This document shows, one piece after another, positions 11,488 through 64,000 of a stretch of 64,000 nucleotides of DNA. A program made the translations under genes and the position numbers. Source of the DNA: Antedon mediterranea (lineage: Eukaryota > Animalia > Echinodermata); the NCBI RefSeq assembly GCF_964355755.1, contig NC_092677.1:24663175-24727174 (forward strand), read 5' to 3'. The notes under the pieces were generated by a model that saw only the letters and a list, made by a program, of their open reading frames with translations, had not been told where the DNA came from and ran no database searches. Every line of letters starts with the position of its first letter. Within the stretch, counting starts at the first letter, position 1.

Positions 11488-11707
11488 CAAACTTGAGAGT
11501 GTACCGTACTGAATTAATATGTTGCAGCTGAAAAGTCATCATACATGAGTGGCACTCTCAGACATTATGTTCAAATTGTAATTGATACATTATGTTTGAA
11601 ATAATTATTATCGGATATTAGAAATACATATATATTACGGCATAAGTATAAAGATAATAAAGCCTAACTATGGAACTACTACTAACACTTTCTTTTACAG
11701 TAACATA

Positions 11708-33771: not shown

Positions 33772-36112
33772 CTATATATTTCCGTTGCCTTGGAATAAAG
33801 ACCATTGTGATTGTACGTAAGATGGCGGCGGTGATTCAATGGAAGACTTTATTCTATCGTCTATCATAACAGAAGCGTATGATGGGGGAAGGTCTTGAGC
33901 AGGCCCAGGGGATGATGACGTCACTACTGATAATACGTTGAGTTGATATTGGTACTCAACACCTTCGTTAATAACTCCTGTAGGCTGAGTTGTACTTGCA
34001 TTGTTTGTTACTGGTGACGTAGGCCTATTTCTCTTCTTGGCGCGGTGGCATATACAGACGTAAAAGCAAAAGTAAAAAGCGAAGATTGAAACAACAACAA
34101 TAATAACAAGAACAGTATTAATTCCACTATCATCATCAACAGCAGAATTACCAGAAGTATCATCTTCCAAGAAATCTTCATCAGAAGAATCGTCATCATC
34201 ATTCAATTCTAGGAATAAAGGTGATATATTGTGAATACAGTATGAAGTTCATATTAAATGGCTGTCAATCAATAAATGTTGGTATTAAAGGTTTTCAATC
34301 ACTTCCAATACATCCGTCATGGAGAAATAATGGTTACACACATTACATATCCGGGTGAAATTTTCCGTTCGGTATTTATTATAAATCCCACAACAATGGG
34401 TGTTTGTTTTTTTTTGTAAGATGTACTGTTACAGATTTAACTAACTTTATTGCACAGGTAGCCTACATTTCTATATATTGCTTAATAATTTGGATTTTCT
34501 GATGCATAAGATTCAAGATTCAAGATTCAAGAAATTTTATTTGTCCATGAAAATGGAAATTCACTTTGCTTGGTAGATTAAAACAACAATATTGCAACAA
34601 TTTAAAACGTGCAGTATTATAACAGACAATAGACAATATTTTGGGACAATTTCACCAGCGTTTCATAGGCGTCTTGTAAACTCATTCAACAAAGGCTTAC
34701 CTTCATAACACTTTAGTTTTACAGGATGGAAACAGTACGGATCTGTATACAAATTCTGCTTACAATATTTCAGACTATCTTCAAATCCATTACATGTAAA
34801 TTCAACCTTGTAGTTTACTGAACTGGCTGGCACGTTGTCGCTGTACAATTGATAGCCTCTTGAGTATCCAAGCTGCCTACAAGCTACTTGTGAGTTATCA
34901 CCTGTCCAATCATTTATGCAAATTCGACTCCACTCCCCTTCATACTTTATTTCTAACCAACCAATATTCGATGAATTTTCCGAGGAATCTCCAATAAGAC
35001 GTATTGTATAATTTTCAAATTGCTGTTCATCTAGACCAATTAAATTCAATAACCATACATTAAAAGAAAACAAATTGAAATAGTTTACAAACATAAGCTT
35101 CGACACATTTTTTTTAATTCCCTGGGGTTTTTTTTTTAACCATAGAGGAAAATATGTTCTCCTTAATGGAACAAGGCCAACAGCCATTAAGTCGCGTGCT
35201 ACAATGCATAGTGATACCGGACCGACGGACAGACCGACAGACAGACCGACCGACCGACCAACCTACCAACTGACCGAAATTACTGAACATGTTTAAAAAT
35301 GTTGAAATGTTTAAAAACATTTATATTTTTTAAATTTACGTGCGTGACGTGTTGTATAACGTAATTTCGAGTTGAAAAGTAAGTCAAGAAAACAGAAATC
35401 GGGCAAAAAGAGTGCGTAATAACATTTAACGCGCAGTGCGCTCGCAAAAATCTGCGCACTCATGGCAATTTTGTAAACGCTTAAAATTGCCTGAAACGTA
35501 CTCTTATTTCATCGAAAATAAATGTTGAAAATTTTAAGCGCGCGTACGCATGCGTTACATGCGCTACGCACGTAATTGTATTGCCATATGATGATTTATG
35601 CCCTGAAATTTATGAGTACCAAATTTTATTTAATTGTGATTCATGGTTGTGAAGATATGATTATAAACGTGATTTCGTTAAATCGTGCGTACACCGCGTA
35701 ATTTTTTATTGCGCACCGTGAAAACATAACCACATCGATTCCTGGCCATAAGGAATATACTGTGAAAAATTGACTTAGCCAGATTAAACTGATATCAAGA
35801 TAAGGTCAGAAAGCGATAAAACGCATAGTGATACCGGACCGACAGACAGACCGACAGACAGACCGACCGACCGACATAGTGAACTATAGAGTCGCGTCCA
35901 CGCGACTAAAAACGCAAGTAATTTGACAAACCACAAGCGAGTAGCTATAATAGCTATATGCCTACACGATTGTTAAATGTGTATGATTGAGTTTTGTTCC
36001 TCAAAATCATATCATCACTGAATTTATATCTATACATTATTTCCTGATCGACATTACCCGAGGTAACCAAAATGATACACGTCAAGGCGATTGTCCCTCT
36101 AATTAGAAGCAT
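33772..36112 (-). CDS. SRCR receptor gene 1: signal peptide - 1 group-A SRCR - acidic stalk - TM - cytoplasmic tail with two PPxY motifs
   Basis: Exons 36112-36058 (MLLIRGTIALTCIILVTS), 35030-34701 (SRCR, 6 Cys, VACRQLGY) and 34208-33772 (ELNDDDD...VLVIIVVVSIFAFYFCFYVCIC...DLPPSY...SPPPSY). All junctions are phase 1, GT-AG. A 5' non-coding exon donor lies at ~36404. Confidence 0.88.
35170..35910. mobile_element. Helentron/DINE-like non-autonomous element in SRCR gene 1 intron; short relatives at 24160-24262, 52741-52826, 54865-54935
   Basis: Subterminal inverted AGTCGCGTG...CACGCGACT, terminal hairpin AGTCGCGTCCACGCGACT and (GACC/GACA)n microsatellites. Inserted in an A-run that is empty in paralogous introns (e.g. 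43127-43160). Confidence 0.7.
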
Positions 36113-36864
36113 CTTTCACAAATAGGTCTGAAAAAGAAATCGAACAAATGTATTATAATGCAAGTAAACTAGTATGTTAATATCTACATTAGTGGAGGAT
36201 CTATCTTTATCTATCAATATATCTCTTTACTAAAAAGTACTTCAGATCTATACTTTTAGGACATTCTTTCTAAAGTCCCAAATTCAGTGTAGCAAAACAG
36301 AACAACGTGCAGGAGGTTGATCAAGTGACGCTGTCAGATTCAACCTTTCCAGCGGAATGATTTGCCCCGTTTAATATTATTTGAAAACGATCAACTTAAC
36401 TTACCGATGTTGTCTATGATGATCCTGTCCAAGTTGTGATACGGATACTTATTAGACTATAAGGCTTAGGCCTACATAGTTTCTAACGGTTCCTTATATC
36501 AGGAAAATATTGTTTTGTATGTTGTCGTCACTTTTACCTTGCATCCTGGTGATGACTTTACCATTGTGTTCCTTTGTTATATTATTCACAATCAAATCCT
36601 TGTTTAACGACTCATTGTGGTATTGTATGAATTCTTTATGAAAATATAAACACGTACATAACCGTTTATTGTATTATCTATTTCATAAACCTCTGACATT
36701 TAATATCCGAGTGTTACATTCAAACAGGATTTAAATACCAAAAAAAGACCGTCATATTTTCCATATTTCCTTTCCTATTTTAAATATTAATTTTTGGCAA
36801 ATTGCCAGCATTCATTTACATTGGCTATATATAATGTTCACATGACAAACATATTATTATACAC

Positions 36865-36972
36865 AATTTAGTCACTGTCATGAGAACAAATCTAGGCATC
36901 TGACGGGATTTGAACCAAAGACCCTGGGATTGGTAGCCGAGCATCTTAAACACCAAGCTACAACTCCACTGC
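36865..36972 (-). mobile_element. tRNA-derived SINE head; paralogous copies at ~46690-46795 and ~59255-59360
   Basis: A-box-like TAGCTTGGTG and B-box GGTTCAAATCC on the minus strand, with a non-tRNA extension. Same position upstream of each SRCR gene. Confidence 0.65.
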
Positions 36973-37489
36973 AAATTTCTATTTAAAAATGTAAAACTTG
37001 TGTTTTTAAATGTAAAACCATATACAAAAGTGGTATAGTAATTGGCAACATATAGGTACAGCAATAATTTCGTTTAGGCTTTTTAATTCAGAAGATTTTG
37101 AAACACATGGACTCTCCTCTCTATTAATACCAGGGGTGGCAGAATGGGGACAGTGCGCATTGACCTTTACAAATAATCGTTCTGCCCAGCCAGGATAAAA
37201 CAATTTTTTATTTAAAATAGTGATTTTTTATTTTGTTTAAATTTTCTTTTCTGTTGTAGCTTTACAAATAATCGTTCTGCCCAGTCGGGATAAAACAAGC
37301 TGTAATTTAAAATTGTGATTTTTTTATTTTGGTTAAATTTTCTTTTCTGTATTATGTATCTTGTATAAGAAAGGCAGGCTTAAATATAATGAAATATTTC
37401 TCTTGCAGACATAGTTTGCCGCGTTTACTTATATTGGAATAAGGCTTACATTTGGCTAATACTTTCTTTCTTTCTTTCTTTATTTACCC

Positions 37490-39707: not shown

Positions 39708-40110
39708 TTAGGTTACCATTCCGTTGTCTTTCACAGGCGATTGCACGAAAGGTGGTGGCGATGAGTCATATACAGATTTCAATTCTACGTAACAACATCG
39801 TATGAAGGAGAGGAGGAATGTCTTGAGAAGATTCCGGGTCTTGAGACGCGCAAGGGTTTTGAGACGCGCAAGGGTTTTGAGACGCGCCAGGAGAGGATGA
39901 AGTTGCTGAATTATCATTGGTTTGGTACTCAGCTCCTTCGGTAACAACTCCTCTGCGATAATTTTCTTTTGCTGACGTAGGCCTACATTTCGTCCTGCAT
40001 AATAGACAGACGAAACAGCACAAGCAAAGGGGAGAGTAGGCCTATATCATAACCATACAAACAAAAACAACAAATTCATCAGAATCATCGTCGTCATCAT
40101 CCCAATCCCA
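39708..40110 (-). pseudogene. Degenerate TM/PPxY-tail exon (paralog of 33772-34208); copies at ~47060-47440 and ~59620-60005
   Basis: CFVCLLCRTKCRPTS...GVVTEGAEYQ...TSSSPG...QDIPP(PSY)...SSPPPFVQS aligns with the gene 1 tail. Frameshifts or stops in all three copies. Confidence 0.75.
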
Positions 40111-40980
40111 ACTTGGTTTTATTAACTTGTTTATTGGCATACCATTTTGTAACTTTATCGATCTAGTTTTATCTGTCTAATCATCATTATTCTTAAAAGC
40201 CTAATAATAAACTTAAAATAGGTATACCATGTGTAACAATTGTTGAGTTGATATAGTAAGTTTATATAGGAAAAAATGGGCAGAATAGTAATCTATCCGT
40301 ATGGTAGACCTACCCCGTCAACTATACTTTATGTGTATCCGATACAATACACTTATGCACATTATACCAATGTATGACATATTATTATCTGTAATTAGTT
40401 GTGCTACCCAATATTTATAATAGGTAGCACACACATACGTGCATGTCATCCTACCAAAATACTATCCTATTTTATAATGTGTAACATATTTATATCGGTA
40501 ATTAGTTGTGCTACCCAATATTTATAATAGGTAGCACACACTTATGTGCATGTCATCCTACCAAAATACTATCCTTTTTGTTATTGTGTAAACTATTTAT
40601 ATCCGTGATGTGTTGTGCTACCAACATCTATAATGGGTAGCACACACTCATGTGAAATATTATCAATGTGTAACATATTTATATCGGTAGGCCCTACTTA
40701 GTTGTGCCCACTATTTTAGCGCCGTGCCTTTAGGAGGACGGAGGAGACTGTACCACTGTTATACTAATGACTACGGATGAAAACATGGGTATTTGGAAAC
40801 TTGGTGACCCGCCTATATATACAAGATGATGTTGTTATCTAATTAGCAAAATGTACGATCAACCTGAATGCCTAAGTCATTATAAACACATTTGGGTAAT
40901 TGGTTTATGCCCTAGGCTAAAAAGTTCAACAGTCACGCTAAGCCAGGCTCCGGCCGCGGTGGCATATTAGTGGAGTCGGT

Positions 40981-41915
40981 TAGGGATATTTTGGTTCAGT
41001 TTTTTCAAAAGCGCCGAATTTGGTATACAAGTTGCCCACCCTATACAAATTCAATTTTTGATGGGCGCCAACCCCTTGGATCACCTAATTTGCATAATTT
41101 AAAGCGGATATTTTCGCGAGTTGATTTTTAGCTTAAAATGTTCAGAACATAAACATTCCTTTTTACTCTAATAAAGTATTTTGGTAAAATTATCGGAAGT
41201 ACCATTTTTAACTTTTGACCTGTTTTTCAGGCAAATTATCATATCTTATTATTTGGTTGGCGTGGAAACTTTATTTTGGTGTCAGATTGTTCAAAATATA
41301 TACCGTATGTTACTATTCTGTTTAATAGAAGATTTTTCCAAATAGAAAATAGTAAATAGAAATGTTTATGTTCTGAATATTTTGACACCTAAATCAACTC
41401 TCTATGTAGTAATTCTAAGTAGTTAATGGATATCAAAAGATATTAAACTTAATGCAGTTGGCAATTGCACCTTAAAGGTTAAAGGCGTATTTCCGGATAT
41501 TTTTGGATGAAATTTTTCATTAAACTGAATAGTAACAAATATATTCTGAACAAATTGACACCAAAATAAACTGTCTATGACAACTGTTTACTGAGATACC
41601 GTATGCTTTCAAATATGGGTCAAAGGTTAAAAATGGTACTTCCGGTCATTTTTTTCAAAAATACTTCATTATACTAAAAAGGAATGTTTATGTTCTGAAC
41701 ATTTTGACACATAAATTAACTCTTTATGACAAACAGTTTTTCAGAGATATAGAGTGTTTAAGCGAAAATATCCGCCAGTTTAAATTATGCAAATTAGGTG
41801 ATCCAGGGGGTCATTTTGCTTGGCGCCCTTAAAAGATTGAATTCGTAGATGGTGGGCAAATTATACCATATACCAAAATTGGTGCTTTCGGAAGAAACTG
41901 AACCAAAGACCCTTA
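40981..41915. mobile_element. Foldback/MITE-like element with ~250-bp imperfect inverted repeats; copies at ~48838-49776 and ~60885-61768
   Basis: 40985-41222 is the reverse complement of ~41617-41912 (ggatcacctaatttgcataatttaaa, aaaatgttcagaacataaacattccttttta, ggaagtaccatttttaac). Confidence 0.8.
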
Positions 41916-41923
41916 TTTCAGCC

Positions 41924-44900
41924 CTAACAACCGCCTCCACCACCGCCTCCACCACAATCTCCCCCACCACCACCTCCATAACCACCTCCATAACCACCTC
42001 CACCAGGCGTGAACCTTCTTCCTGCTGGTGAAGTAATTCTCTTATCGCTTATACAGGCGAAAAAGATCAAGAGAAAAGCAAAGATAAAAATACCAATAAA
42101 AATACTAATAATAGTAACTTCAGTAATTCCACTACCATAACTAATACTAGTAGGCCTATCACTAGTAGTAGATATACTAGTATCCAAGTAATCTTCATCA
42201 GAAAAATCGTCATCATCATTCAATTCTAGGAATAAAGGGGATAAAATATATTGTGAATACAGTATGAATACATATTAAATGGCTGTCAATCAATGCATGT
42301 TGGTATTAAAGGATTTCAATAACTTCAATACATCCGTTACATCCTGGAGAAATAATGGTTACACACATTACATCCGGGTGAAATTTTCCATTTGGCTTTT
42401 TTTTAATTATTATATGACACAACAATGGGTGATTTTGTTTTGTTAAAAGATGTACTGTTACAGATTAACTAACTTTATTGCACATGGTAGTCTAAATGTC
42501 TATTATATATCTATGGACCTATAATATATCTTAGTGATTTGGATTTTCTGATGCCCACCGTAATTTACCATTTTCGGACAGCGTTTCCATAGGCGTCTTA
42601 TAAACTCATGAATACAACAAGAACTTACCTTCATAACACCTTAATTTTACAGGACGGAAACAGAACGGATCGTTATACAACTTCTGCTTACAGTACTTCA
42701 GACTATCTTCAGATCCATTACATGTAAAGTCAAACCTGTAGTTTAAAGAACTGTCTGACCAGTATTTGTTTTGCAATTGATAGCCATTTGAGTATCCAAG
42801 CTGCCTACAAGCTACTTGTGAGTTGTCAGATGTCCAATCATTTTCGCAAATTTGACTCCATTCCTCTTCATACTTTATTTCTAACCAACCAATATTCGAG
42901 AAATATTTCGAGGAATCCCCAAAAAGACGTATTGTATAATTTTCAAACTGTTGTTCATCTAGACCAATAAAATGCAATAACCATACATTAAAAGAAAAAC
43001 ATTGAAATAACAGTTTACAAACATTATGCTTCAACACATTTCTTTAAAATTCCCTCTTTCACCTTTTTTTTACTCCATAATGTTGTTCCCACTAGGACGC
43101 AAAACCATGGAGGAAAATGTTTTTCCCTTCATGGAAAAAACGTAAAGTAATTTGACAAACCACACGCGATTAGCTAGAATAGAATGCCTACAAGAGTGGT
43201 ACTAATACAACAGTACATTGATTTTTTTTGTGTTAAGAAAGAAACATTACAATTATAATAATAATTGTTATTAGTATAATTCAGTATCAATAAGATATTG
43301 TATCTACTATTTTTTTTTGTAAATGATGAAAATAAAAAAATAATATTTACTGCAAATGGATAGAAAATAATGAGTTTTCGTACATAGTTTATACAGTTCC
43401 ATAAAATACTGTTAATTCTTCCCCACCCCACCCCTCCAACACCCCACCCCTCCAACAAACACCCAACACTTCTGAGTCATCACTACTTACGATAGATTGT
43501 TTTGTGTTATTATGTGTTGGATTGTATACATTCAAAGAAAGAAATAGAAATAATGCCTTTTGTTAAACCATGTGTTGTTATTAGTTGGGATGATTAATCT
43601 ACAAGAAGGAATTATCTAAATGTTGACCCCTTAAAAAATAAATCATTATAGTAAAAGTTATGTTGCATAGTTTCCATGTATGCACTTACATATTATAGCT
43701 AAAAAAACAAATACTCTGTCCTTTCCCGTTTTGTTCATTTACTAAAATCTACATTTTTTAGATAATGCTTTTTCATAAATCAGGGCAGAAATCTACGGGA
43801 GAAATTGTAAAGGTCCTGTTTACTACTGGTGACGTATTTCTCTTCTTGTCGGGATGGCTTATACAGGCGTAAATGAGCGTTCCATAGGCGTCTTATAAAC
43901 TAATGAATACAACAAGAACTTACATTCATAACACTTTAATTTTACAGGACGGAAACAGAACGAATCGATATACAACTTCTGCTTGCAGTACTTCAGACTA
44001 TCTTCAGATCCATTGCATGTAAAGTCAACCTTGTAGTTTAAAGAACTGTCTGACTCGTAGTCGCCGTACAATTGATAGCCTCTTGAGTATCCAAGCTGCC
44101 TACAAGCTACTTGTGCATTTTCAACTGCCCAATCCCTTATGCAAATTTGACTCCACTCCCCTTCATACTTTATTTCTAAGCGACCAATATTTGAAGAATT
44201 TTCCGAGGAATCTCCAATAAGACGTATTGTATAATTTTTAAATTGCTGTTCATCTAGACAAATAAAATTCAATAACCATACATTAAAAGAAAAATAAATA
44301 GAAATAACAGTTTACAAACATACGCTTCAAAACTTTTCTTTAAAATTCCGTCTTTCACCTTTTTTTACTCAATACCCTCTATAAATGTTGTTCACACTAG
44401 GACGCAAAACCGTAGAGGAAAATGGTTTTCCCCTTCATAGAAAAAACGCAAGTAATTTGACAAACCACAAGCCACTAGCCAGAATATATTTTTTTGTGGT
44501 AAGAAAGAAATATTAAAATAATAATAATAATAATTGTTATTAGTATAATAAAGTATCAATAAGATATTGTATCTAATATTTTTTTGTAAATGTTGATAAT
44601 AATAAAAAAAGATATTTACTGCAAATGGATAGAAAATGATGAGTTTTCGTACATAGTTAACACAGTTCTATTAAATACTGCTAAATCTTCCCCACCGCAC
44701 CCTCCAACACCCCTCACCCAACACTTCTGAGTCAAATAATATTCCCAATTCCTATCACTACTTACAATACATTGTTTTGTGTTATTATAATGTGTTGGAC
44801 TGTACATTCAAAGAAAGAAATAGAGATAATGCCTTTTGTTAAATCATTTGTTATTATTAGTTGGGATGATTAATCTACAAAAAGGAATTATCTAACTGTT

Positions 44901-45906
44901 GACCTCTTAAAAATAAATTATTAAAATAAAATTTAGGTTGCATAATTTCCAGGTATGTACGTATACATATTATAGCTAAAAACAAATACTCTGTCCTTAA
45001 GTTTTTTAGGATAAACTCAAACCCGTTTTGCTCATTTACTAAAATCTACATTTTTTTAGATAATGCATTTTCATAAATCTGGGCAGAAATCTACGGGAGT
45101 AATTGTAAAGGTCCTATTTGCTGCAGCTGGTAAGTATTTCTTTTCTGGCTTATAAGGCGTAAATGAGCGTTCCATAGGCGTCTTATAAACTAATGAATAG
45201 AACAAGAACTTACCTTCATAACACCTTAATTTTACAAGACGGAAACAGAACGGATCGATATACAACTTCTGCTTACAGTACTTCAGACTATCTTCAGATC
45301 CATTACATGTAAAGTCAACTATGTAGTGTAAAGAACTGTCTGACTCGTAGTCGCTGTACAATTGATAGCCATTTGAGTATCCAAGCTGCCTACAAGCTAC
45401 TTGTGAGTTTTCACCTGTCCAATCAGTTATGCAAATTTGACTCCATTCCCCTTGTCCTTCATATGTTATTTCTAACCGACCGATATTCGATGAATTTCCC
45501 GGGGAATCTCCAATAAGACGTAATGAATAATTTAATAATTGCTCTTCATCTAGACCAATAAAATTCAATACATTAACAGTTTAGGCTACAAACATACGCT
45601 TCAACACATTTGTTTTTAATTCCCTCTTTCACCGTGCCCTCTAAGGTTAGCTCCACTAGGAAGCAAAACCATGGAGGAAAATGTTTTTCTCCTTCATTGA
45701 AAGTAACAACCCACAAGCGAGTATTCAGAATAGCTATATGCCTATTATTATAAGAGTATTAAATGTATATGATTGAGTTTTGTTCCTCGAAATTGATTGG
45801 GCAAAATCATATCATCACTGAATTTATTTCTATAGGCCGTACATTATTTACCTGAGGTAACCAAAATGATACACGACAAGGCGATTGTCCCTCTAAACAG
45901 AAGCAT
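41924..45906 (-). CDS. SRCR receptor gene 2: signal peptide - 3 SRCR - acidic stalk - TM - short Gly-rich tail ending in Cys
   Basis: Exons 45906-45852, 45549-45214, 44253-43924, 42958-42629 and 42225-41924. All phase 1, open, GT-AG. Confidence 0.85.
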
Positions 45907-47709: not shown

Positions 47710-48530
47710 GACATATTTATATCTGTAATTAGTTGTGCTACCCAATATTTATAATATGTAGCACACACTACGTGCATGTCATCCTACCAAAATACTATCC
47801 TTTTAATTAATGTGTAACATATTTATATCGGTAATTAGTTGTGCTACCCAATATTTATAATAGGTAGCACACACTACGTGCATGTCATCCTACCAAAATA
47901 CTATCCTTTTTATTAATGTGTAACATATTTATATCGGTAATTAGTTGTGCTACCCAATATTTATAATAGGTAGCACACACTACGTGCATGTCATCCTACC
48001 AAAATACTATCCTTTTTATTAATGTGTAACATATTTATATCGGTAATTAGTTGTGCTACCCAATATTTATAATAGGTAGCACACACTACGTGCATGTCAT
48101 CCTACCAAAATACTATCCTTTTTATTAATGTGTAACATATTTATATCGGTAATTAGTTGTGCTATCCAATATTTATAATAGGTAGCACACACTACGTGCA
48201 TGTCATCCTGCCAAAATACTATCCTTTTAATTAATGTGTAACATATTTATATCGGTAATTAGTTGTGCTACCCAATATTTATAATATGTAGCACACACTA
48301 CGTGCATGTCATCCTACCAAAATACTATCCTATTTTATAATGTGTAACATATTTATATCGGTAATCATTTGTGCTACACACACTTATGTGCATGTCATAC
48401 AAAAATACTATCCTTTTTGTTATTGTGTAAACTATTTATATCCGTGATGTGTTGTGCTACCAACATCTATAATGGGTAGCACACACTCATGTGAAATATT
48501 ATCAATGTGTAACATATTTATATCGGTAGG
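47710..48530. repeat. 106-bp minisatellite, ~7 copies (only ~2.5 copies at paralogous 40380-40690 and 60275-60590)
   Basis: aatgtgtaacatatttatatcggtaattagttgtgctaccc recurs at 47809, 47915, 48021 and onward. Confidence 0.92.
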
Positions 48531-52700: not shown

Positions 52701-55700
52701 TAGGATAAACCCAAACACGTTTTGCTCATTTACTCAAATCGCAACGCGACTCTACAACTCACTATGTCGGTCGGTTGGTAAACACTAACTTGAGCACGCG
52801 ACTGCAGCTATGTATATGACCTTGTTTGTGATAATGCCTTTTCATAAATCAGGGCAAAAATCTAAGTGAGTAATTGTAAAGGTCCTGTTTGCTGCTGGTG
52901 AAGTATTTCTCTTCTTGTCGGGGTGGCTTATAAGGTGTAAAAGAGCGTTCCATAGGCGTCTTATAAACTAATGAATACAACAAGAACTTACCTTCATAAC
53001 ACCTTAATTTTACAGGATCAAAACAGTGCCAATCGTTATACAACTTCTGCTTACAGTACTTCAGACTATCTTCAAATCCATTACATGTAAAGTCAAACCT
53101 GTAGTTTAAAGAACTGTCTGACCAGTAGTTGTTTTGCAATTGATAGCCATTTGAGTATCCAAGCTGCCTACAAGCTACTTGTGAGTTGTCACCTGTCCAA
53201 TAAGTTTTGCAAATTTGACTCCATTCCCCTTCATACTTTATTTCTAACCAACCAATATTCGAGGAATATTTCGAGGAATCCCCAAAAAGACGTATTGTAT
53301 AATTTTCAAACTGTTGTTCATCTAGACCAATTAAAATGCAATAACCATACATTAAAAGAAAAACATTGAAATAACAGTTTACAAACATTATGCTTCAACA
53401 CATTTCTTTAAAATTCCCTCTTTCACCTTTTTTTTACTCCATAATGTTGTTCCCACTAGGACGCAAAACCATGGAGGAAAATGTTTTTCCCTTCATGGAA
53501 AAAACGTAAAGTAATTTGACAAATCACACGCGATTAGCTAGAATAGAATGCCTACAAGAGTGGTACTAATACAACATTACATTGATTTTTTTTTCTGTGT
53601 TAAGAAAGAAACATTACAATTATAATAATAATTGTTATTAGTATAATTCAGTATCAATAAGATATTGTATCTACTATTTTTTTTGTAAATGCTGAAAATA
53701 AAAAAATAATATTTACTGCAAATGGATAGAAAATAATGAGTTTTCGTACATAGTTTATACTGTTAATTCTTCCCCATCCCACCCCTCCAACACCCCTCAC
53801 CTCACGATAGATTGTTTTGTGTTATTATGTGTTGGATTGTATACATTCAAAGAAAGAAATAGAAATAGAAATAATGCCTTTTGTTAAACCATGTGTTGTT
53901 ATTAGTTGGGATGATTAATCTACAAGAAGGAATTATCTAAATGTTGACCCCTTAAAAAATAAATCATTATAGTAAAAGTTATGTTGCATAATTTCCATGT
54001 ATGCACTTCTACATATTATAGCTAAAAAAACAAATACTCTGTACTTTCCCGTTTTGTTCATTTACTAAAATCTACATTTTTTAGATAATGCTTTTTCATA
54101 AATCAGGGCAGAAATCTACGGGAGTAATTGTAAAGGTCCTGTTTACAACTGGTGAAGTATTTCTCTTCTTGTCGGGGTGGCTTATACAGGCGTAAATGGG
54201 CGTTCCATAGGCGTCTTATAAACTAATGAATACAACAAGAACTTACCTTCATAACACTTTAATTTTACAGGACGGAAACAGAACGAATCGATATACAACT
54301 TCTGCTTGCAGTACTTCAGACTATCTTCAGATCCATTACATGTAAAGTCAACCTTGTAGTTTAAAGAACTGTCTGACTCGTAGTCGCCGTACAATTGATA
54401 GCCTCTTGAGTATCCAAGCTGCCTACAAGCTACTTGTGCATTTTCAACTGCCCAATCCCTTATGCAAATTTGACTCCACTCCCCTTCATACTTTATTTCT
54501 ATCCGACCAATATTCGATGAATTGTCAGGGGAATCCCCAAAAAGACGTATTGAATAATTTCCGAATTTCTGTTCATCTAGACCAATAAATGCAATAACCA
54601 TACATTAAAAGAAAAATAAATTTAAATAACAGTTTACAAATATACGCTTCAAAACATTTCTTTAAAATTCCCTCTTTCACCTTTTTTTTTTTACTCAATA
54701 CCCTCTATAAATGTTGTTCCCACTAGGACGGAAAACCGTGGAGGAAAATGGTTTTCCCCTTCATGGAACCACAAGCCAGTAGCCAGAATAGCTATATGCC
54801 TACAAGAGGTACTAATACAACATCACATTGATTTTTGTATGGTAAGAAAGAAATATTAAAATAAAGCTCACTATGTCGGTCGGTTGGTAAACACTAAATT
54901 GAGCACGCGACTGCAGCCATGTATATGGCCTTGTTTGTGATAATGCCTTTTCATAAATCAGGGCAGAAATCTAAGTGAGTAATTGTAAAGGTCCTGTTTG
55001 CTGCTGGTGAAGTATTTCTCTTCATGTCGGGATGGCTAATACAGGCGTAAGTTAGCGTTCCATAGGCGTCTTATAAACTAATGAATACAACAAGAACTTA
55101 CCTTCATAACACCTTAATTTTACAGGATAGGAACAGTACCGATCTGTATACAAATTCTGCTTACAGTACTTCAGACTATCTTCAAATCCATTACATGTAA
55201 AATCAACCCTGTAGTGTAAAGAACTGTCTGACTCGTAGTCGCTGTACAATTGATAGCCAATTGAATTGAATCCAAGCTGCCTACAAGCTACTTGTGAGTT
55301 TTCATCTGACCAGGAAGCAACTCCCTGATCTGACCAATCAAATAAGCACATTTGACTCCACTCCCCTTCATACTTTATTTCTAAGCGACCAATATTCGAG
55401 GAATATTCCGAGGAATCTCTAACAAGACGTATTGTATAATTTTCAACTTGCTGTTCATCTAGACAAATAAAATTAAATAACCATACATTAAAAGAAAAAT
55501 AAATTGAAATAACAGTTTACAAACATTTGCTTCAACACATTTATTTAAAATTCCGTCTTTCACCTTTTTTTACTCCATACCCTCTATAAATGTTGTTCCC
55601 ACTAGGACGCAAAACCGTGGAGGAAAATGGTTTTCCCCTTCATGGAAAAAACGCAAGTAATTTGACAAACCACAAGCCAGTAGCCAGAAAATATATGCCT

Positions 55701-58470
55701 ACCAGAGTATTATATGTACTAATCTAACATAACATTGATATATTTTTTTGTGGTAAGAAAGAAATATTAAAATAATAATAATAATAATTGTTATTAGTAT
55801 AATTCAGTATCAATAAGATATTGTATCTACTATTTCTGTGTACATGCTGATGGATAATAAAAAAATACTATTTACTGCAAATGGATAGCAAATGATGAGT
55901 TTTCGTACATAGTTAATACAGTTCTATTAAATACTGCTAAATCTTCCCCACCCCACCCTCCAACACCCCTCACCCAACACTTCTGGGTCAAATAATATTC
56001 CCAATTCCTATCACTACTTACGATAGATTGTTTTGTGTTATTATAATGTGTTGGATTGTATACATTCAAAGAAAGAAATAGAAATAATGCCTTTTGTTAA
56101 ATTATGTGTTGTTATTAGTTGGGATGATTAATCTACAAGAAGGAATTATCTAAATGTTGACCCCTTAAGAAATAAATCATTATAATAAAATTTATGTTGC
56201 ATAATTTCCATGTATGCACTTCTACATATTATAGCTAAAAAACACATAATCTCTCCTTCAGTTTTTTAGGATAAACTCAAACCCGTTTTGCTCAATTACT
56301 AAAATCTACATTTTTTTAGATAATGCCTTTTCATAAATCAGGGCAGAAATCTACGGGAGAAATTGTAAAGGTCCTGTTTACTACTGGTGACGTATTTCTC
56401 TTCTTGTCGGGGTGGCTTATACAGGCGTAAATGGGCGTTCCATAGGCGTCTTATAAACTAATGAATACAACAAGAACTTACATTCATAACACTTTAATTT
56501 TACAGGACGGAAACAGAACGAATCGATATACAACTTCTGCTTGCAGTACTTCAGACTATCTTCAGATCCATTGCATGTAAAGTCAACCTTGTAGTTTAAA
56601 AAACTGTCTGACTCGTAGTCGCCGTACAATTGATAGCCTCTTGAGTATCCAAGCTGCCTACAAGCTACTTGTGCGTTTTCAACTGCCCAATCCCTTATGC
56701 AAATTTGACTCCACTCCCCTTCATACTTTATTTCTAAGCGACCAATATTTGAAGAATTTTCCGAGGAATCTCCAATAAGACGTATTGTATAATTTTTAAA
56801 TTGCTGTTCATCTAGACAAATAAAATTCAATAACCATACATTAAAAGAAAAATAAATAGAAATAACAGTTTACAAACATACGCTTCAAAACTTTTCTTTA
56901 AAATTCCGTCTTTCACCTTTTTTTACTCAATACCCTCTATAAATGTTGTTCACACTAGGACGCAAAACCGTAGAGGAAAATGGTTTTCCCCTTCATAGAA
57001 AAAACGCAAGTAATTTGACAAACCACAAGCTACTAGCCAGAATATATTTTTTTGTGGTAAGAAAGAAATATTAAAATAATAATAATAATAATTGTTATTA
57101 GTATAGTTCAGTATCAACAAGATATTGTATCTAATATTTCTGTGTAAATGCTGATGGATAATAAAAAAATACTATTTACTGCAAATGGATAGCAAATGAT
57201 GAGTTTTCGTACATAGTTAATACAGTTCTATTAAATACTGCTAAATCTTCCTCACCCCACCCTCCAACACCCCTCACCCAACACTTCTGAGTCAAATAAT
57301 ATTCCCAATTCCTATCACTACTTACAATACATTGATTTGTGTTATTATAATGTGTTGGATTGTATACATTCAAAGAAAGAAATAGAAATAATGCCTTTTG
57401 TTAAATCATTTGTTATTATTAGTTGGGATAATTAATCTACAAAAAGGAATTATCTAAATGCTGACCTCTTAAAAAAAACATTATTAAAATAAAATTTAGG
57501 TTGCATAATTTCCAGGTATGTAGGCCTACGTATACATATTATAGCTAAAAAACAAATACTCTGTCCTTAAGTTTTTTAGGATAAACTCAAACCCGTTTTG
57601 CTCATTTACTAAAATCTACATTTTTTTAGATAATGCCTTTTCATAAATCAGGGCAGAAATCTACGGGAGTAATTGTAAAGGTCCTGTTTGCTGCTGGTAA
57701 GTATTTCTCTTCATGTCGGGGTGGCTTATACAGGCGTAAATGGGCGTTCCATAGGCGTCTTATAAACTAATGAATACAACAAGAACTTACCTTCATAACA
57801 CTTTAATTTTACAGGACGGAAACAGAACGAATCGATATACAACTTCTGCTTGCAGTACTTCAGACTATCTTCAGATCCATTACATGTAAAGTCAAACCTG
57901 TAGTGTAAAGAACTGTCGTAGTTGCTGTACAATTGATAGCCATTTGAGTATCCAAGCTGCCTACAAGCTACTTGTGAGTTTTCACCTGTCCAATCAGTTA
58001 TGCAAATTTGACTCCACTCCCCTTGTCCTTCATATGTTATTTCTAACCGACCGATATTCGATGAATTTCCCGAGGAATCTCCAATAAGACGTAATGAATA
58101 ATTTAATAATTGCTCTTCATCTAGACCAATGAAATTCAATACATTAACAGTTTAGGCTACAAACATACGCTTCAACACATTTGTTTTTAATTCCCTCTTT
58201 CACCGTGCCCTCTAAGGTTAGCTCCACTAGGAAGCAAAAACATGGAGGAAAATGTTTTTCTCCTTCATTGAAAGTAACAACCCACAAGCGAGTATTCAGA
58301 ATAGCTATATGCCTATTATTATAAGAGTATTAAATGTATATGATTGAGTTTTGTTCCTCGAAATTGATTGGGCAAAGTCATATCATCACTGAATTTATTT
58401 CTATACATTATTTACCTGAGGTAACCAAAATGATACACGTCAAGGCGATTGTCCCTCTAAACAGAAGCAT
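49785..58470 (-). CDS. SRCR receptor gene 3: signal peptide - 7 SRCR - acidic stalk - TM - short Gly-rich tail ending in Cys
   Basis: Exons 58470-58416, 58120-57791, 56811-56482, 55458-55102, 54576-54247, 53321-52992, 52471-52151, 50755-50432 and 50038-49785. Each SRCR exon length is a multiple of 3, phase 1-1, with 6 Cys. Confidence 0.85.
51072..51820. mobile_element. Insertion in SRCR gene 3 intron (related to 1265-1540; contains tRNA-like box at ~51598-51665)
   Basis: Absent from paralogous introns. Shares sequence with 1265-1540 and has a 64-bp internal direct repeat at 51710-51805. Confidence 0.6.
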
Positions 58471-61400
58471 CTTTCACAAATATGTCTGAAACAAAATTAA
58501 ATCGAACAAATGTAGTCTATTATAATTCAAGTATGTTAATATCTATCTATCCATGGAAGATCTATCTTTATCTATCAATCTATCTCTTTACTAAAAGGTA
58601 CTTCTATACTGTTACTTTAGTACATTCTTTCCAAAGTCCCAAATTTGTGTAGCAAAACAGAACAGTTGATCAAATTGACACTGTCAGATTCAACCTTTCC
58701 TCGTTTAATATGAAAACGATCAACTTACTTACCGATGTTGTCTATAATGATCCTATCTAAGTTGTGATACGGGTTCTTATTAGACCAGATTTATAGTTGT
58801 ATGTTGTGTAAATCATGCACGTCATCACTTTTACCTTGTACTTGCATCCTGTTGATTATTTTCCATTGTGTCCTTTTATTATATTATTTACCATCAAACC
58901 TGTCATGACGCATTTGGGAATTAAATAAATTCTTGATGGAAATATAAACCCGTACATAACCATTTATTGTATTCTCTATTTCATAAACCTCTGAAATTTA
59001 AAATCCGGTATTACATTTCAAAACAGAATTTAAGTATCAAACACTTGAAAAGTTAAGAATCACTCCGTCATACTTTCCACCAACATTTAATAATCTTCAA
59101 ATTTCCTTTCCTAATCTAAATATTCATTTTTGGCAAATTGCCAAAAATAACCATGAGCGAATTCATTCACAGTGGCAATCATGTTCACAGGACAAACATA
59201 TACACAAGATACTCTGCATAAACAAAATATTGACCAGGTCTTTGGGAGTAGAGTTTAGTCACAGTCATGAGAACAAATCCGGACATCTGAAGGGAATTGA
59301 ACCAAAGATCCTGGAATTGGTAGCCGAGCATATTAACCACAAAGCTACAACTACACTCCAAATATGTTTTTTTAAACTTTATTTTTTCCAGATTTTAGGT
59401 AAGATGTTACGTAAATAAATTTGGATAACGCAAAGTCTGTCTATTTGAAAAGGTGCCAATTCCATTTCTGAAAATACCATCTTTTTTTTTCTCCATAAAA
59501 TATAAAATATCAAAATAATACATTAAAATAAAAGAGCAATATTGTGATTAAGAAAAACATGCATCCAAAATTAACCCATAAAAGAAAAGTTCGTGCTTTT
59601 GAAATGTCTGTTTCATTTTAGGCTCCGTTGAACTGTCTTTCACAGGCGATTGCACGAAAGGTGGTGGCGATGATTCATATACAGATTTCAATTCTACGCC
59701 TTATCTCATAACAACATCGTATGAAGGAGGAGGAATGTCTTGAGAAGATTCCGGGTCTTGAGAAGAGCGAGGGTCTTGAGAGGCGCAAGGGTTTTGAGAC
59801 GCGCCAGAAGAGGATGAAGTTGCTGAATTATCATTGGTTTGGTACTCAGCTCATTTGTTAACTACTCCTCTACGATAATTTTCTTCTGCTGACGTAGGCC
59901 TACATTTCGTCCTGCATAATAGACAGACGAAACAGCACAAGCAAAGGGGAGAGTATATCATAACCATACAAACAAAAACGAATCATCGTCATCATCCCAA
60001 TCCCAACTTCCTTACTTGGTTTTATTAACTTGTTTATTGGCATAATATAACATTTTGTAATTTTATCGATCTAGTTTGATCTTTCTAATCATCTTAAAAG
60101 CCTAATAAAAAAAACTTCAAATAGGTATACCATGTGTAACAATTGTTGATATAGTAAGTTTATATAGGAAAAAATGGGCAGAATAGTAATCTATCCGTAT
60201 GGTAGACCTACCCCGTAAACTATACTTTATGTGTATCCGATACAATACACTTATGCACATTATACCAATGTGTGACATATTTATATCTGTAATTAGTTGT
60301 GCTACCCAATATTTATAATAGGTAGCACACACATACGTGCATGTCATCCTACCAAAATACTATCCTATTTTATAATGTGTAACATATTTATATCGGTAAT
60401 TAGTTGTGCTACCCAATATTTATAATAGGTAGCACACACTTATGTGCATGTCATCCTACCAAAATACTATCCTTTTTGTTATTGTGTAAACTATTTATAT
60501 CCGTGATGTGTTGTGCTACCAACATCTATAATGGGTAGCACACACTCATGTGAAATATTATCAATGTGTAACATATTTATATCGGTAGGCCCTACTTAGT
60601 TGTGCCCACTATTTTAGCGCCGTGCCTTTAGGAGGACGGAGGAGACTGTATCACGCGGAAGGTTATACTAATGACTACGGATGAAAACATGGGTATTTGG
60701 AAACTTGGTGACCCGCCTATATATACAAGATGATGTTGTTATCTAATTAGCAAAATGTACGATCAACCTGAATGCCTAAGTCATTATAAACACATTTGGG
60801 TAATTGGTTTATGCCCTAGGCTAAAAAGTTCAACAGTCACGCTAAGCCAGGCTCCGGCCGCGGTGGCATATTATTGGAGTCGGTTAGGGATATTTTGGTT
60901 CAGTTTTTCCAAAAGCGCCGAATTTGGTATACAAGTTGCCCACCCTATACAAATTCAATTTTTGATGGGCGCCAACCCCTTGGATCACCTAATTTGCATA
61001 ATTTAAAGCGGATATTTTCGCGAGTTGATTTTTAGCTTAAAATGTTGAGAACATAAACATTCCTTTTTACTCTAATAAAGTATTTTGGTAAAATTATCGG
61101 AAGTACCATTTTTAACTTTTGACCTGTTTTTCAGGCAAATTATCATATCTTATTATTTGGTTGGCGTGGAAACTTTATTTTGGTGTCAGATTGTTCAAAA
61201 TATATACCGTATGTTACTATTCTGTTTAATAGAAGATTTTTCCAAATAGAAAATAGTAAATAGAAATGTTTATGTTCTGAATATTTTGACACCTAAATCA
61301 ACTTAATGCAGTTGGCAATTGCACCTTAAAGGTTAAAGGCGTATTTCCGGATATTTTTGGATGAAATTTTTCATTAAACTGAATAGTAACAAATATATTC

Positions 61401-61776
61401 TGAACAAATTGACACCAAAATAAACTGTCTATGACAACGGTTTACTGAGATACCGTATGCTTTCAAATATGGGTCAAAGGTTAAAAATGGTACTTCCGGT
61501 CATTTTTTTCAAAAATACTTCATTATACTAAAAAGGAATGTTTATGTTCTGAACATTTTGACACATAAATTAACTCTTTATGACAAGCAGTTTTTCAGAG
61601 ATATAGAGTGTTTAAGCGAAAATATCCGCCAGTTTAAATTATGCAAATTAGGTGATCCGGGGGTCATTTTGCTTGGTGCCCTTAAAAAATTGAATTCGTA
61701 GATGGTGGGCAAATTATACCATATACCAAAATTGGTGCTTTCGGAAGAAACTGAACCAAACACCCTTATTTCAGCC

Positions 61777-64000
61777 CTAACAACCGCCTCCACCACCGCC
61801 TCCATCACCGCCTCCACCACAATCTCCCCCACCACCTCCATAACCACCTCCACCAGGCGTGAACCTTCTTCCTGCTGGTGAAGTAATTCTCTTATCGCTT
61901 ATACAGGCGAAAAAGATCAAGAGAAAAGCAAAGATAAAAATAATAATAAAAATAATAATAACTTCAGTAATTCTACTACTATAACTAATACTAGTAGGCC
62001 TACCACTAGTAGTAGATATACTAGTATCCAAGTAATCTTCATCAGAAAAATCGTCATCATCATTCAATTCTAGGAATAAAGGGGATAAAATATATTGTGA
62101 ATACAGTATGAATACATATTAAATGGCTGTCAATCAATGCATGTTGGTATTAAAGGATTTCAATAACTTCAATACATCCGTTACATCCTGGAGAAATAAT
62201 GGTTACACACATTACATCCGGGTGAAATTTTCCATTTGGCTTTTTTTTAATTATTATATGACACAACAATGGGTGATTTTGTTTTGTTAAAAGATGTACT
62301 GTTACAGATTAACTAACTTTATTGCACATGGTAGCCTAAATGTCTATTATATATCTATGGACCTATAATATATCTTAGTGATTTGGATTTTCTGATGCCC
62401 ACCGTAATTTACCATTTTCGGACAGCGTTTCCATAGGCGTCTTATAAACTCATGAATACAACAAGAACTTACCTTCATAACACCTTAATTTTACAGGACG
62501 GAAACAGAACGAATCGATATACAAATTCTGCTTACAGTACTTCAGACTATCTTCAAATCCATTACATGTAAAGTCAAACCTGTAGTTTAAAGAACTGTCT
62601 GACCAGTATTTGTTTTGCAATTGATAGCCATTTGAGTATCCAAGCTGCCTACAAGCTACTTGTGAGTTGTCACCTGTCCAATAATTTATGCAAATTTGAC
62701 TCCATTCCTCTTCATACTTTATTTCTAAGCGACCAATATTCGAGGAATATTTCGAGGAATCCCCAAATAGACGTATTGTATAATTTTCAAATTGCTGTTC
62801 ATCTAGACAAATAAAATTCAATAACCATACATTAAAAGAAAAATAAATTGAAATAAGAGTTTACAAACATAAGCTTCAACACATTTCTTTAAAATTCCCT
62901 CTTTCACCCTTGTTTACTCCATAATGTTGTTCCCACTAGGACGCAAAACCATGGAGAAAAATGTTTTTCCCTTCATGGAAAAAACGTAAAGTAATTAGAC
63001 AAACCACACGCGATTAGCTAGAATAGAATGCCTACAAGAGTGGTACCAATACAACGTTACATTGATTTTTTTTTGTGTTAAGAAAGAAACATTAAAATTA
63101 TAATAATAATTGTTATTAGTACAATTCAGTATCAATAAGATATTGTATCTACTATTTATTTTTGTAAATGCTGATAATAAAAAAATAATATTTACTGCAA
63201 ATGGATAGCAAATAATGGGTTTTCATACATAGTTTACAGTTCCATAAAATACTGTTAATTCTTCCCCACCCCACCCCTCCAACAAACACCCAACACTTCT
63301 GAGTCATCACTACTTACGATAGATTGTTTTGTGTTATTATGTGTTGGATTGTATACATTCAAAGAAAGAAATAGAAATAATGCCTTTTGTTAAACCATGT
63401 GTTGTTATTAGTTGGGATGATTAATCTACAAGAAGGAATTATCTAAATGTTGACCCCTTAAAAAATAAATCATTATAGTAAAAGTTATGTTGCATAATTT
63501 CCATGTATGCACTTCTACATATTATAGCTAAAAAAACAAATACTCTGTACTTTCCCGTTTTGTTCATTTACTAAAATCTACATTTTTTAGATAATGCTTT
63601 TTCATAAATCAGGGCAGAAATCTACGGGAGTAATTGTAAAGGTCCTGTTTACTACTGGTGAAGTATGTCTCTTCTTGTCGGGGTGGCTTATACAGGCGTA
63701 AATGGGCGTTCCATAGGCGTCTTATAAACTAATGAATACAACAAGAACTTACATTCATAACACTTTAATTTTACAGGACGGAAACAGAACGAATCGATAT
63801 ACAACTTCTGCTTGCAGTACTTCAGACTATCTTCAGATCCATTGCATGTAAAGTCAACCTTGTAGTTTAAAAAACTGTCTGACTCGTAGTCGCCGTACAA
63901 TTGATAGCCTCTTGAGTATCCAAGCTGCCTACAAGCTACTTGTGCATTTTCAACTGCCCAATCCCTTATGCAAATTTGACTCCACTCCCCTTCATACTTT
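61777..64000 (-). CDS. SRCR receptor gene 4 (5' part beyond window): >=2 SRCR - TM - Gly-rich tail
   Basis: Exons >64000-63753, 62802-62473 and 62069-61777; closely similar to gene 2. Confidence 0.82.

What the first reader, a model, noticed from the sequence alone, without database searches (positions are those of the whole stretch)
33772..64000. Diversifying SRCR receptor family built from interchangeable symmetric exon cassettes (1, 3, 7, >=2 domains)
Seen: four tandem genes share a near-identical 55-nt signal exon (visible for genes 1-3) and a TM exon but differ in SRCR number. All 13 SRCR exons are open; the 12 complete ones are phase 1-1, a multiple of 3, and carry nearly the same acceptor (tctag|AT) and donor (GAA G/T|gtaag). 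Any subset can therefore be spliced in frame between leader and TM exon. Established: SRCR receptors are expanded pattern-recognition molecules in echinoderms. Inference: this may be a variable immune or allorecognition receptor system diversified by cassette copy number and possibly by combinatorial or mutually exclusive splicing. Gene 1, with a single domain, suggests one SRCR suffices.
Basis: partly seen in the sequence, partly recalled or inferred. Interest (0 to 1): 0.85.

Follow-up and report, generated by a model that had tools for sequence, protein, structure and literature searches.

The report
Feather star scavenger-receptor gene array
This is a young tandem array of expressed feather-star cell-surface scavenger-receptor (SRCR) genes carrying 1, 3, 7 and at least 2 domains; the variety likely comes from gene fusion and unequal DNA crossing-over rather than a special splicing system, and the multi-domain copies have lost a cytoplasmic motif predicted to recruit ubiquitin ligases.

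Summary
The anatomy is largely real: 13 open SRCR exons on the minus strand, 12 complete, phase 1-1, in four tandem genes, very likely of the crinoid Antedon mediterranea. Corrections: the leader exon is 70 nt (55 coding). Three of 13 exons form a TAA stop when joined to the TM exon. The TM exons are not equivalent: gene 1 keeps two PPxY motifs also present in Antedon and Anneissia paralogs, while genes 2-4 end in a Gly-rich stub at a transposon-like element. All 9 internal introns carry a relic of a TM exon and end in leader-intron sequence, so the multi-SRCR genes most likely arose when head-to-tail genes fused and the cassette was then multiplied by unequal crossover. Symmetric phase and shared splice sites follow from that. 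One RNA-like run shows genes 1 and 3 spliced, with adjacent cassettes joined. One junction jumps two cassettes on the gene-3 map; a recombinant intron in the same run points to DNA-level shuffling, but skipping is not excluded. No mutually exclusive design was found; positive selection is only suggestive. It works like sea urchin SRCR arrays and DMBT1. The PPxY tail, its loss and the fusion fossil are the new details.

The parts
36405..37055 (-). Gene 1 untranslated first exon (donor 36405; 5' end = extent of the contig, not a mapped start)
   Evidence: X1 record 2 covers 36405-37055 with 128 letters lying elsewhere, equal to 70 leader + 58 SRCR
36058..36127 (-). Gene 1 leader exon, 70 nt; coding from 36112, predicted signal peptide of 18 aa
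34701..35030 (-). Gene 1 SRCR exon (g1), six Cys
33772..34208 (-). Gene 1 last exon: acidic stalk, TM helix, juxtamembrane Cys, tail with LPPSY and PPPSY
   Evidence: spliced X1 contig; weak Pfam RCR hit E 0.0036, below cut-off
39710..40115 (-). Relic TM/PPxY-tail exon, frameshifted (approximate ends)
40980..41927 (.). About 950-bp element with terminal inverted repeats; its end supplies the TAG stop of gene 2
41924..42225 (-). Gene 2 TM exon, Gly-rich tail, no PPxY
42629..42958 (-). Gene 2 SRCR exon c
43817..43873 (-). TM-exon juxtamembrane relic inside an internal intron. Homologous relics: 45126-45166, 52043-52100, 52886-52943, 54140-54196, 54995-55050, 56375-56431, 57685-57740, 63646-63702
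   Evidence: 9 of 9 internal introns score above all 50 shuffles against at least one TM exon; terminal introns of genes 2-4 do not, gene 1's is marginal (26 vs 25)
43924..44253 (-). Gene 2 SRCR exon b (ends in T; gives TAA if joined to the TM exon)
45214..45549 (-). Gene 2 SRCR exon a
45852..45921 (-). Gene 2 leader exon (coding from 45906); upstream UTR-exon donor at 46169
47055..47430 (-). Relic TM/PPxY-tail exon with in-frame stops (approximate ends)
48837..49788 (.). Second copy of the inverted-repeat element; supplies the gene 3 stop
49785..50038 (-). Gene 3 TM exon, Gly-rich tail, no PPxY; spliced in X1 with 0 differences over 271 nt
50432..50755 (-). Gene 3 SRCR exon g (324 nt)
52151..52471 (-). 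Gene 3 SRCR exon f (321 nt, acceptor CTAG|CT)
   Evidence: e-f junction in X1
52992..53321 (-). Gene 3 SRCR exon e
54247..54576 (-). Gene 3 SRCR exon d
55102..55458 (-). Gene 3 SRCR exon c (357 nt, in-frame insertions)
56482..56811 (-). Gene 3 SRCR exon b (ends in T)
57791..58120 (-). Gene 3 SRCR exon a
   Evidence: leader-a junction in X1
58416..58485 (-). Gene 3 leader exon, 70 nt (coding from 58470); UTR-exon donor at 58733
59620..59995 (-). Relic TM/PPxY-tail exon, near-identical to the 47-kb relic (approximate ends)
60884..61780 (.). Third copy of the inverted-repeat element; supplies the gene 4 stop
61777..62069 (-). Gene 4 TM exon, Gly-rich tail, no PPxY
62473..62802 (-). Gene 4 SRCR exon z
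63753..64000 (-). Gene 4 SRCR exon y, cut by the window edge (ends in T)

Best explanation
This is a recently expanded tandem array of six-cysteine SRCR membrane-protein genes, expressed and spliced in at least genes 1 and 3, whose domain number was likely changed at the DNA level: two head-to-tail genes likely fused, and unequal crossover and gene conversion then likely multiplied and scrambled the resulting exon-plus-intron cassette. Shown: the exon layout, the TM-exon relic and leader-intron ends in the internal introns, the segmental duplications, the mosaic exons, the splice junctions, and PPxY present in gene 1 but absent in genes 2-4. Inferred: the gene-1 type protein binds an outside ligand (microbial or self) through its SRCR and recruits a Nedd4-family WW-domain ligase through two PPxY motifs, sending receptor and cargo to endosomes and lysosomes. 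The multi-domain copies would bind with higher avidity but stay at the surface as tethers or decoys. Occasional in-frame exon skipping probably occurs, as in other SRCR genes, but as a by-product.
For: (1) 9 of 9 internal introns begin like the pre-TM intron, then jump into a roughly 55-nt TM-exon relic; in the 5 examined, the 3' end matches the leader-SRCR intron. (2) Whole blocks are duplicated: 44.2-47.8 kb vs 56.8-60.4 kb at 98.8%, 39.6-44.3 kb vs 59.5-64 kb at 97.4%. In DNA-like run X4, contigs in shared stretches have depth 449-571 against 161-303 in gene 1, about twofold (table 8; a rough measure). (3) Exons are mosaics: neighbouring informative sites are less incompatible than shuffled ones, p=0.0015. 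(4) X1, another sample, holds a 235-nt intron contig that is a mismatch-free chimera of two different internal introns; the best single intron in the window differs at 8 places. (5) RNA-like junctions join neighbours: UTR-leader, leader-a, e-f. (6) The T-ending exons cannot join the TM exon without a stop, as expected if they only ever serve as internal exons. (7) Paralogs P0003 and P0017 (A. mediterranea) and P0072 (Anneissia japonica) keep SRCR-TM-dual PPxY, so the tail is ancestral in crinoids. PPxY tails of single-pass proteins recruit NEDD4-family ligases (PMC11399591, passages). (8) Single-exon SRCR duplication in tandem arrays is described in sea urchin (PMC10855680, passages); 7-20 SRCRs by copy-number variation in DMBT1 (PMC4851238, passages).
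Against: One X1 junction (T-ending exon to an e-type exon, depth 98) jumps exons c and d on the gene-3 map. Its acceptor side differs from g3e at 2 listed places, and by my count from the letters from g2c and g4z at about 3, so real skipping in gene 3 cannot be ruled out. A sea-star SRCR-TM-PPxY protein has an annotated isoform lacking 214 internal residues, two SRCRs (P0154 vs P0152), so skipping does occur in this receptor class. Copy-number difference between animals is inferred from one chimeric contig of depth 10.9 and could be a gene-conversion patch. No ligand, tissue, WW binding or immune induction was tested. The residues that clamp cations in SALSA/DMBT1 are mostly not kept, so a DMBT1-like microbe-binding mode is not supported. 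Gene 4's leader lies outside the window or is missing; its database model P0002 has no signal peptide.
Confidence: 0.68

Rival explanations
1. Regulated combinatorial or mutually exclusive splicing of the SRCR cassettes is the main source of receptor diversity (Dscam-like; the first reader's idea).
For: All complete exons are symmetric and 3n. One X1 junction jumps two cassettes on the gene-3 map. WC1 transcripts lose one to six whole SRCR domains by splicing (PMC2681482, passages), and a Patiria isoform lacks two SRCRs. A 24-nt inverted repeat lies in 7 of 9 internal introns and could pair across cassettes; 3 of 7 leader-intron duplexes beat all 10 shuffles.
Against: Adjacent exons e and f are spliced together. 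Internal introns are 520-1395 nt and all GT-AG, so there is no steric or spliceosome-class barrier. The strong leader-intron duplexes use different segments: one targets a repeat fragment, two a self-complementary stretch shared by homology. The best intronic self-duplex (-22.0) is reached by 1 of 15 shuffles. The apparent leader-to-b skip is gene 1's own contig (same depth 85; 128 = 70 + 58 letters). Symmetry is inherited from one ancestral exon.
Confidence: 0.12
2. Genes 2-4 are recent, functionally unimportant duplicates on their way to decay (tails lost, gene 4 possibly 5'-truncated), and only gene 1 matters.
For: PPxY tails are lost at an inverted-repeat insertion and three decayed TM-exon relics lie between the genes. 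Overall pN/pS is 1.04 (95% CI 0.66-1.66). P0002 lacks a signal peptide.
Against: All 12 complete exons are open with six Cys, and about 47% of codons have omega near 0. All exon indels are in frame. Gene 3's leader, exons a, e, f and TM exon are in spliced contigs. Part of the constraint may predate the latest duplications.
Confidence: 0.12
3. The array works outside immunity, for example in cell adhesion, matrix binding, gamete recognition or membrane-protein turnover.
For: The SALSA cation site is mostly not conserved. The tail's nearest feature neighbours are small trafficking-type membrane proteins (MLANA, TMEM52B, BEAN1, commissureless; all scores under 0.9, leads only). The tissue of expression is unknown.
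Against: Rapid birth-and-death, mosaicism and a hint of omega above 1 are typical of immune families (general knowledge). A broken NLR-type gene lies 17 kb away. Sea urchin srcr142 is induced by bacteria in pigment cells (PMC5073156, passages).
Confidence: 0.2
4. The extra copies are an assembly artefact (two haplotypes placed in tandem).
For: Stretches of several hundred bases with 0-2 mismatches between gene 2 and genes 3/4.
Against: Shared stretches have about twice the contig depth of gene 1 in X2, X3 and X4, which are one sample. Gene 3 has exons (c, d, f, g) with no twin in the window. The copies are mosaics of three blocks, not two alleles.
Confidence: 0.04

Closest known systems
Sea urchin tandem SRCR arrays (Strongylocentrotus purpuratus; PMC10855680, passages)
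   Same: Six-Cys (group A) SRCR domains, each in one exon; tandem gene clusters; paralogs differ in domain number through domain-level duplication.
   Different: A crinoid, not covered in that paper (0 occurrences of 'crinoid'). Here the ancestral gene has a dual-PPxY tail, and the introns keep a readable fossil of the gene fusion that made the cassette.
DMBT1/SALSA SRCR copy-number variation (PMC4851238, PMC7043408, passages)
   Same: Near-identical SRCR repeats whose number changes at the DNA level.
   Different: DMBT1 is one secreted gene with eight-Cys (group B) domains, SID spacers, CUB and ZP domains and a dual cation site. Here there are several membrane genes, six Cys, no spacers, and the cation ligands are mostly replaced.
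Bovine WC1 array (PMC2681482, passages)
   Same: Multigene array of type I SRCR receptors, single-exon domains, gene-specific tail length.
   Different: WC1 is group B and a T-cell co-receptor with extensive SRCR skipping shown by cDNA; here skipping is not shown and the tail motif is PPxY.
PPxY single-pass Nedd4 adaptors: CYYR1/WBP1/VOPP1 (STMC6), NDFIP (PMC11399591, passages)
   Same: Signal peptide, one TM helix, several PPxY motifs in a short tail (gene 1, P0003, P0017, P0072).
   Different: The outside part is an SRCR domain (WxxW plus SRCR in P0003), not the short STMC6 Cys-rich domain; WW binding is untested; genes 2-4 lack the motifs.
Dscam-type mutually exclusive exon clusters (recalled, no paper read)
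   Same: Tandem homologous exons in one gene.
   Different: Neighbouring exons are co-included here, and no shared docking site was found.

Membership tests
SRCR superfamily, group A | SRCR domain by profile | tested here: met
   12 of 12 complete exons above the Pfam PF00530 cut-off; the profile hits CD163, MARCO, DMBT1 and others in the PDB, 31 sequences
SRCR superfamily, group A | Six conserved cysteines rather than eight (definition from PMC10855680) | tested here: met
   Six invariant Cys columns in 12 of 12
SRCR superfamily, group A | SRCR fold in a predicted model | tested here: inconclusive
   AlphaFold2 on a 12-sequence alignment gave pLDDT 40.5; not used
Type I membrane SRCR receptor | Signal peptide, ectodomain, one TM helix, tail | tested here: met
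   Genes 1-3 open from leader to stop; TM hydropathy 2.79 and 3.59 for P0001 and P0002. The signal peptide was judged by eye, no predictor run; gene 4's leader was not seen
SALSA/DMBT1-type cation-dependent SRCR | Acidic ligands D1019, D1020, D1058, D1059, N1081, E1086 (PMC7043408) | tested here: not met
   Mapping inferred from the CD163 alignment and from spacing. The D1059 equivalent is D/E in 12 of 12; D1019 is E in 1 of 12; D1020 is N in 5 of 12 and never D; D1058, N1081 and E1086 are not kept
DMBT1-like SRCR copy-number variation | Domain number differs between haplotypes of one gene | tested here: inconclusive
   One chimeric intron contig and one two-cassette jump in X1; no second phased haplotype available
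Dscam-type mutually exclusive cluster | Neighbouring variants never co-included | tested here: not met
   e-f junction, GT-AG, in X1
Dscam-type mutually exclusive cluster | Shared docking site pairing with a selector beside each exon, or a steric or frame barrier | tested here: not met
   No common strong duplex; introns 520-1395 nt and exons 3n
WC1/CD163 (group B) receptors | Eight-Cys domains | tested here: not met
   Six Cys
WC1/CD163 (group B) receptors | Extensive SRCR exon skipping | tested here: inconclusive
   Contigs only; 15 of 20 joints shown; 1 ambiguous jump
PPxY Nedd4 adaptors (STMC6-like) | Single TM helix with several PPxY motifs in the tail | tested here: met
   Gene 1, P0003, P0017, P0072 have 2-3 per tail; genes 2-4 have none
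PPxY Nedd4 adaptors (STMC6-like) | Short STMC6 Cys-rich ectodomain | tested here: not met
   The ectodomain is SRCR
PPxY Nedd4 adaptors (STMC6-like) | Binds WW domains of a Nedd4-family ligase | not testable with these tools
   No crinoid WW-domain ligase was in hand; needs a pull-down
Allorecognition locus | Extreme allelic polymorphism linked to self/non-self outcome | not testable with these tools
   No population or assay data

The most novel reading that the evidence does not exclude
A crinoid paired-receptor system: a PPxY-tailed single-SRCR receptor that internalises its ligand through a Nedd4-family ligase, beside tail-less, multi-domain siblings whose cassette number and order differ between animals, whose ligand face is under diversifying selection, and whose T-ending exons act as a built-in splice switch (skip to the TM exon, TAA stop) that releases a secreted one- or two-domain decoy.
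Probability: 0.12. Interest if true: 0.7.

Novelty: new variant of a known kind. Interest (0 to 1): 0.36.

Why it matters
Tandem SRCR arrays with variable domain number are known, but how a short receptor gene becomes a multi-domain gene is rarely visible. Here all nine internal introns still carry the fossil of the step (a TM-exon relic joined to the next gene's leader intron), so the origin of the repeat unit can be read and dated. The family also links an SRCR ectodomain to a dual PPxY tail kept in two crinoid families, which gives a testable signalling or trafficking route for echinoderm SRCR receptors, whose downstream mechanism is mostly unknown. The loss of that tail in the expanded copies suggests a receptor/decoy pair. 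As evidence for a new splicing-based diversification system it is weak.

Tried and rejected
No whole genome was held, so the rest of gene 4 and the family size could not be read. One search listed no holder on record as RNA; X1 is a guess by the tool, judged RNA-like here by its GT-AG joints, and no silent control stretch was laid. The joint table was swamped by repeats (15 of 183 shown, none a splice joint). In X1 the bins holding the distinctive starts of exons d (54465-54777) and g (50709-51021) have depth 0 and the gene-2 TM bin is low (6.4); contigs show presence, not absence, so this is not used as evidence. Homologue searches with the tail found nothing new: 0 of 512 candidates, and it missed the clear paralog P0003, so it was crowded out; only P0003 itself among 30. 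AlphaFold2 model unusable; no fold search run. Cassette-borne poly(A) signals as a design for secreted forms: AATAAA in only 2 of 9 internal introns, rejected. Docking-site and competing-pairing scans gave no shared element. Positive selection: M2a over M1a LRT 12.0, nominal p 0.002, 7 sites above 0.9; LRT 9.1 with three segment trees; but 6 of 88 recombinant null simulations reached 12.0, so it is only suggestive. Columns with four or more residues were not in excess (9 vs 7.0, P 0.25). No SRCR, leader or TM relic was found left of 33.7 kb. Atlas hits were all under 0.9. No earlier scan findings. Pancer's sea urchin SRCR papers were not read (not held; the 2001 title was seen only in a reference list).

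Full report
SOURCE. The window is very likely from the crinoid Antedon mediterranea. The two database proteins it encodes (P0001, P0002) have the same longest-contig length, 28,587,047, as P0003 and P0017, which their sources name as A. mediterranea. No whole genome was held.

OBSERVATION. All genes lie on the minus strand. A donor scan found 13 SRCR exons; 12 are complete, 321-357 nt long, multiples of 3, open and phase 1-1, and 12 of 12 pass Pfam SRCR with six invariant Cys. Three leaders and four TM exons give genes with 1, 3, 7 and at least 2 SRCRs; genes 1-3 are open from start to stop. The exons are under constraint: 55 of 102 columns are invariant against 30.8 in neutral simulation, and none of 500 simulations was free of stops. 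Four corrections follow. The leader exon is 70 nt and has an untranslated exon upstream. One acceptor is CTAG|CT. Three exons end in T and give TAA when joined to the TM exon, so not every subset yields a membrane protein. The TM exons differ in kind: gene 1 has LPPSY and PPPSY in its tail, while genes 2-4 end in a Gly-rich stub whose TAG stop sits at the end of a roughly 950-bp inverted-repeat element. Three decayed TM/PPxY exons lie between the genes.

HOW THE CASSETTE AROSE. Each of the 9 internal introns starts with about 47 nt matching the pre-TM intron, then switches to a roughly 55-nt relic of the juxtamembrane part of a TM exon. All 9 score above 50 shuffles against at least one TM exon; the terminal introns of genes 2-4 do not, and gene 1's is marginal. 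In the 5 internal introns examined, the 3' end matches the leader-SRCR intron. The simplest reading (inference) is one fusion of two head-to-tail genes, which removed the upstream TM acceptor and helix and the downstream promoter and leader, followed by multiplication of that unit. Large blocks are 94-99% identical, exons are 86-99% identical in DNA and are mosaics (p 0.0015), and six homologous introns differ by 1.8-10.5%. Symmetric phase and shared splice sites are therefore inherited from one recent ancestor, and symmetry is what lets an exon duplication survive; they are not separate evidence for alternative splicing. The duplication looks real: in DNA-like run X4, contigs in shared stretches have depth 449-571 against 161-303 in gene 1, with the same trend in X2 and X3 of the same sample (depth is a rough guide).

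RNA. One run, X1, from another sample, behaves as spliced RNA: it has GT-AG joints, and its contigs break at exon borders that X2-X4 contigs cross. On gene 3, 15 of 20 joints were shown. Seven lie in repeat insertions and two come from gene 1's UTR. Five are splice junctions. Three of these join neighbours (UTR-leader, leader-a, e-f). One apparent skip, leader to b, is gene 1's contig: same depth of 85, 128 extra letters equal to 70 + 58, and g1 and g3b differ at 1 of their first 58 nt. One junction joins a T-ending exon to an e-type exon. On the gene-3 map it jumps c and d, but it is also the normal adjacency in genes 2 and 4, and its letters do not settle which. The remaining joint is intronic: a 235-nt contig identical in its first 126 nt to intron a-b and in its last 109 nt to introns d-e and y-z, while the best single intron differs at 8 places. 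That is a recombinant cassette not in this assembly and favours DNA-level shuffling between animals, though a conversion patch would look the same. The TM exons of genes 1 and 3 are both in spliced contigs. Strict mutual exclusion is refuted by the e-f junction, and no steric, frame or shared docking mechanism was found; three of seven leader-intron duplexes beat their shuffles but use unrelated or self-complementary segments. Ordinary skipping stays open: WC1 does it (PMC2681482, passages) and a Patiria SRCR-TM-PPxY protein has an annotated isoform lacking two internal SRCRs.

FAMILY AND LIKELY FUNCTION. P0003 (signal, WxxW, one SRCR, TM, two PPxY), P0017 (a model that appears to join two three-SRCR genes, each with a PPxY tail) and P0072 from Anneissia japonica align with gene 1's tail, so the tail is ancestral and was lost in genes 2-4. 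Among 151 proteins in hand, 56 had SRCR hits; an automatic rule found a C-terminal TM in 25 and a PY motif in the tail of 4, and reading P0017 and P0072 added 2 that the rule missed. PPxY tails of single-pass proteins bind WW domains of NEDD4-family ligases and act at late endosomes (PMC11399591, passages); the same is inferred, not shown, for gene 1. The SALSA cation ligands (PMC7043408, passages) are mostly replaced, by an inferred mapping. Three of the seven best omega>1 sites (g1 residues 39, 74, 97) fall at or beside those positions, but the selection signal does not clearly survive a recombination-aware null (6 of 88).

COMPARISON AND NOVELTY. It works like sea urchin SRCR arrays, where single-exon domains duplicate within tandem clusters (PMC10855680, passages), and like DMBT1 copy-number variation (PMC4851238, passages). 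It is a group A SRCR membrane-protein family; it is not a Dscam-type cluster, not group B, and not an STMC6 member. I found no paper on PPxY-tailed SRCR receptors or on crinoid SRCR arrays in the listings I saw: 0 of 15 listed, of 90, contain 'PPxY'; 0 of 5 listed, of 7, contain 'SRCR'; 20 of 126 listed, one with a single SRCR mention; 8 listed. Subscription journals are not covered and no supplements were read.

VERDICT. A real, expressed, young SRCR array diversified mainly at the DNA level. New variant of a known kind, interest 0.36.

Noticed in passing
window 11600-16283 (+): Broken NLR-type gene: DED-like piece (E 7.6e-5, below cut-off), NACHT (59.1 bits) and LRR-like stretch, with frame changes near 14300, 15540 and 15930.
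   Followed up: partly
window 3-455 (+): ORF piece at the window edge that looks like another LRR-type end; judged by eye only.
   Followed up: no
window 2492-3595 (-): Reverse-transcriptase fragment of a LINE-like element (RVT_1, 47.7 bits).
   Followed up: no
window 43924, 56482, 63753 (-): T-ending SRCR exons give a TAA stop if spliced to the last (TM) exon, which would yield a soluble protein that likely escapes nonsense decay. No such junction was seen.
   Followed up: partly
window 40369-40654, 47703-48377, 60267-60552: 106/107-bp minisatellite with 2.7, 6.4 and 2.7 copies in the three duplicated blocks; X1 shows a go-back of 106 at high depth.
   Followed up: no
window 57435-57458 and 57625-57648, and homologues: 24-nt inverted repeat about 140-170 nt apart in 7 of 9 internal introns; duplex -10 to -21 kcal/mol, not clearly above shuffles; may be the ends of a small transposon.
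   Followed up: partly
P0017 and P0072: Database models that appear to join two or more neighbouring SRCR-TM-PPxY genes into one protein, so the family is larger than this window and its annotation is unreliable.
   Followed up: partly
P0001, P0002; window genes 1 and 2: The protein collection holds only a 5'-truncated gene 3 model and a leaderless gene 4 model; no gene 1 or gene 2 protein came up among 45 candidates, although gene 1 is spliced in X1.
   Followed up: partly
window 3723-4481, 10564-11275, 25107-26162: Tandem arrays of 31, 198 and 169 bp; the 169-bp unit is open over about 100 codons on the minus strand.
   Followed up: no
window 22068-22322 (+): 85-aa ORF that looks like a Myb/SANT-type transposon protein piece; recalled resemblance, not tested.
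   Followed up: no
window 34509-34626 and 22376-22494: A 119-bp piece in gene 1's last intron is 97% identical to an inverted copy 12 kb away, likely a young repeat insertion.
   Followed up: no
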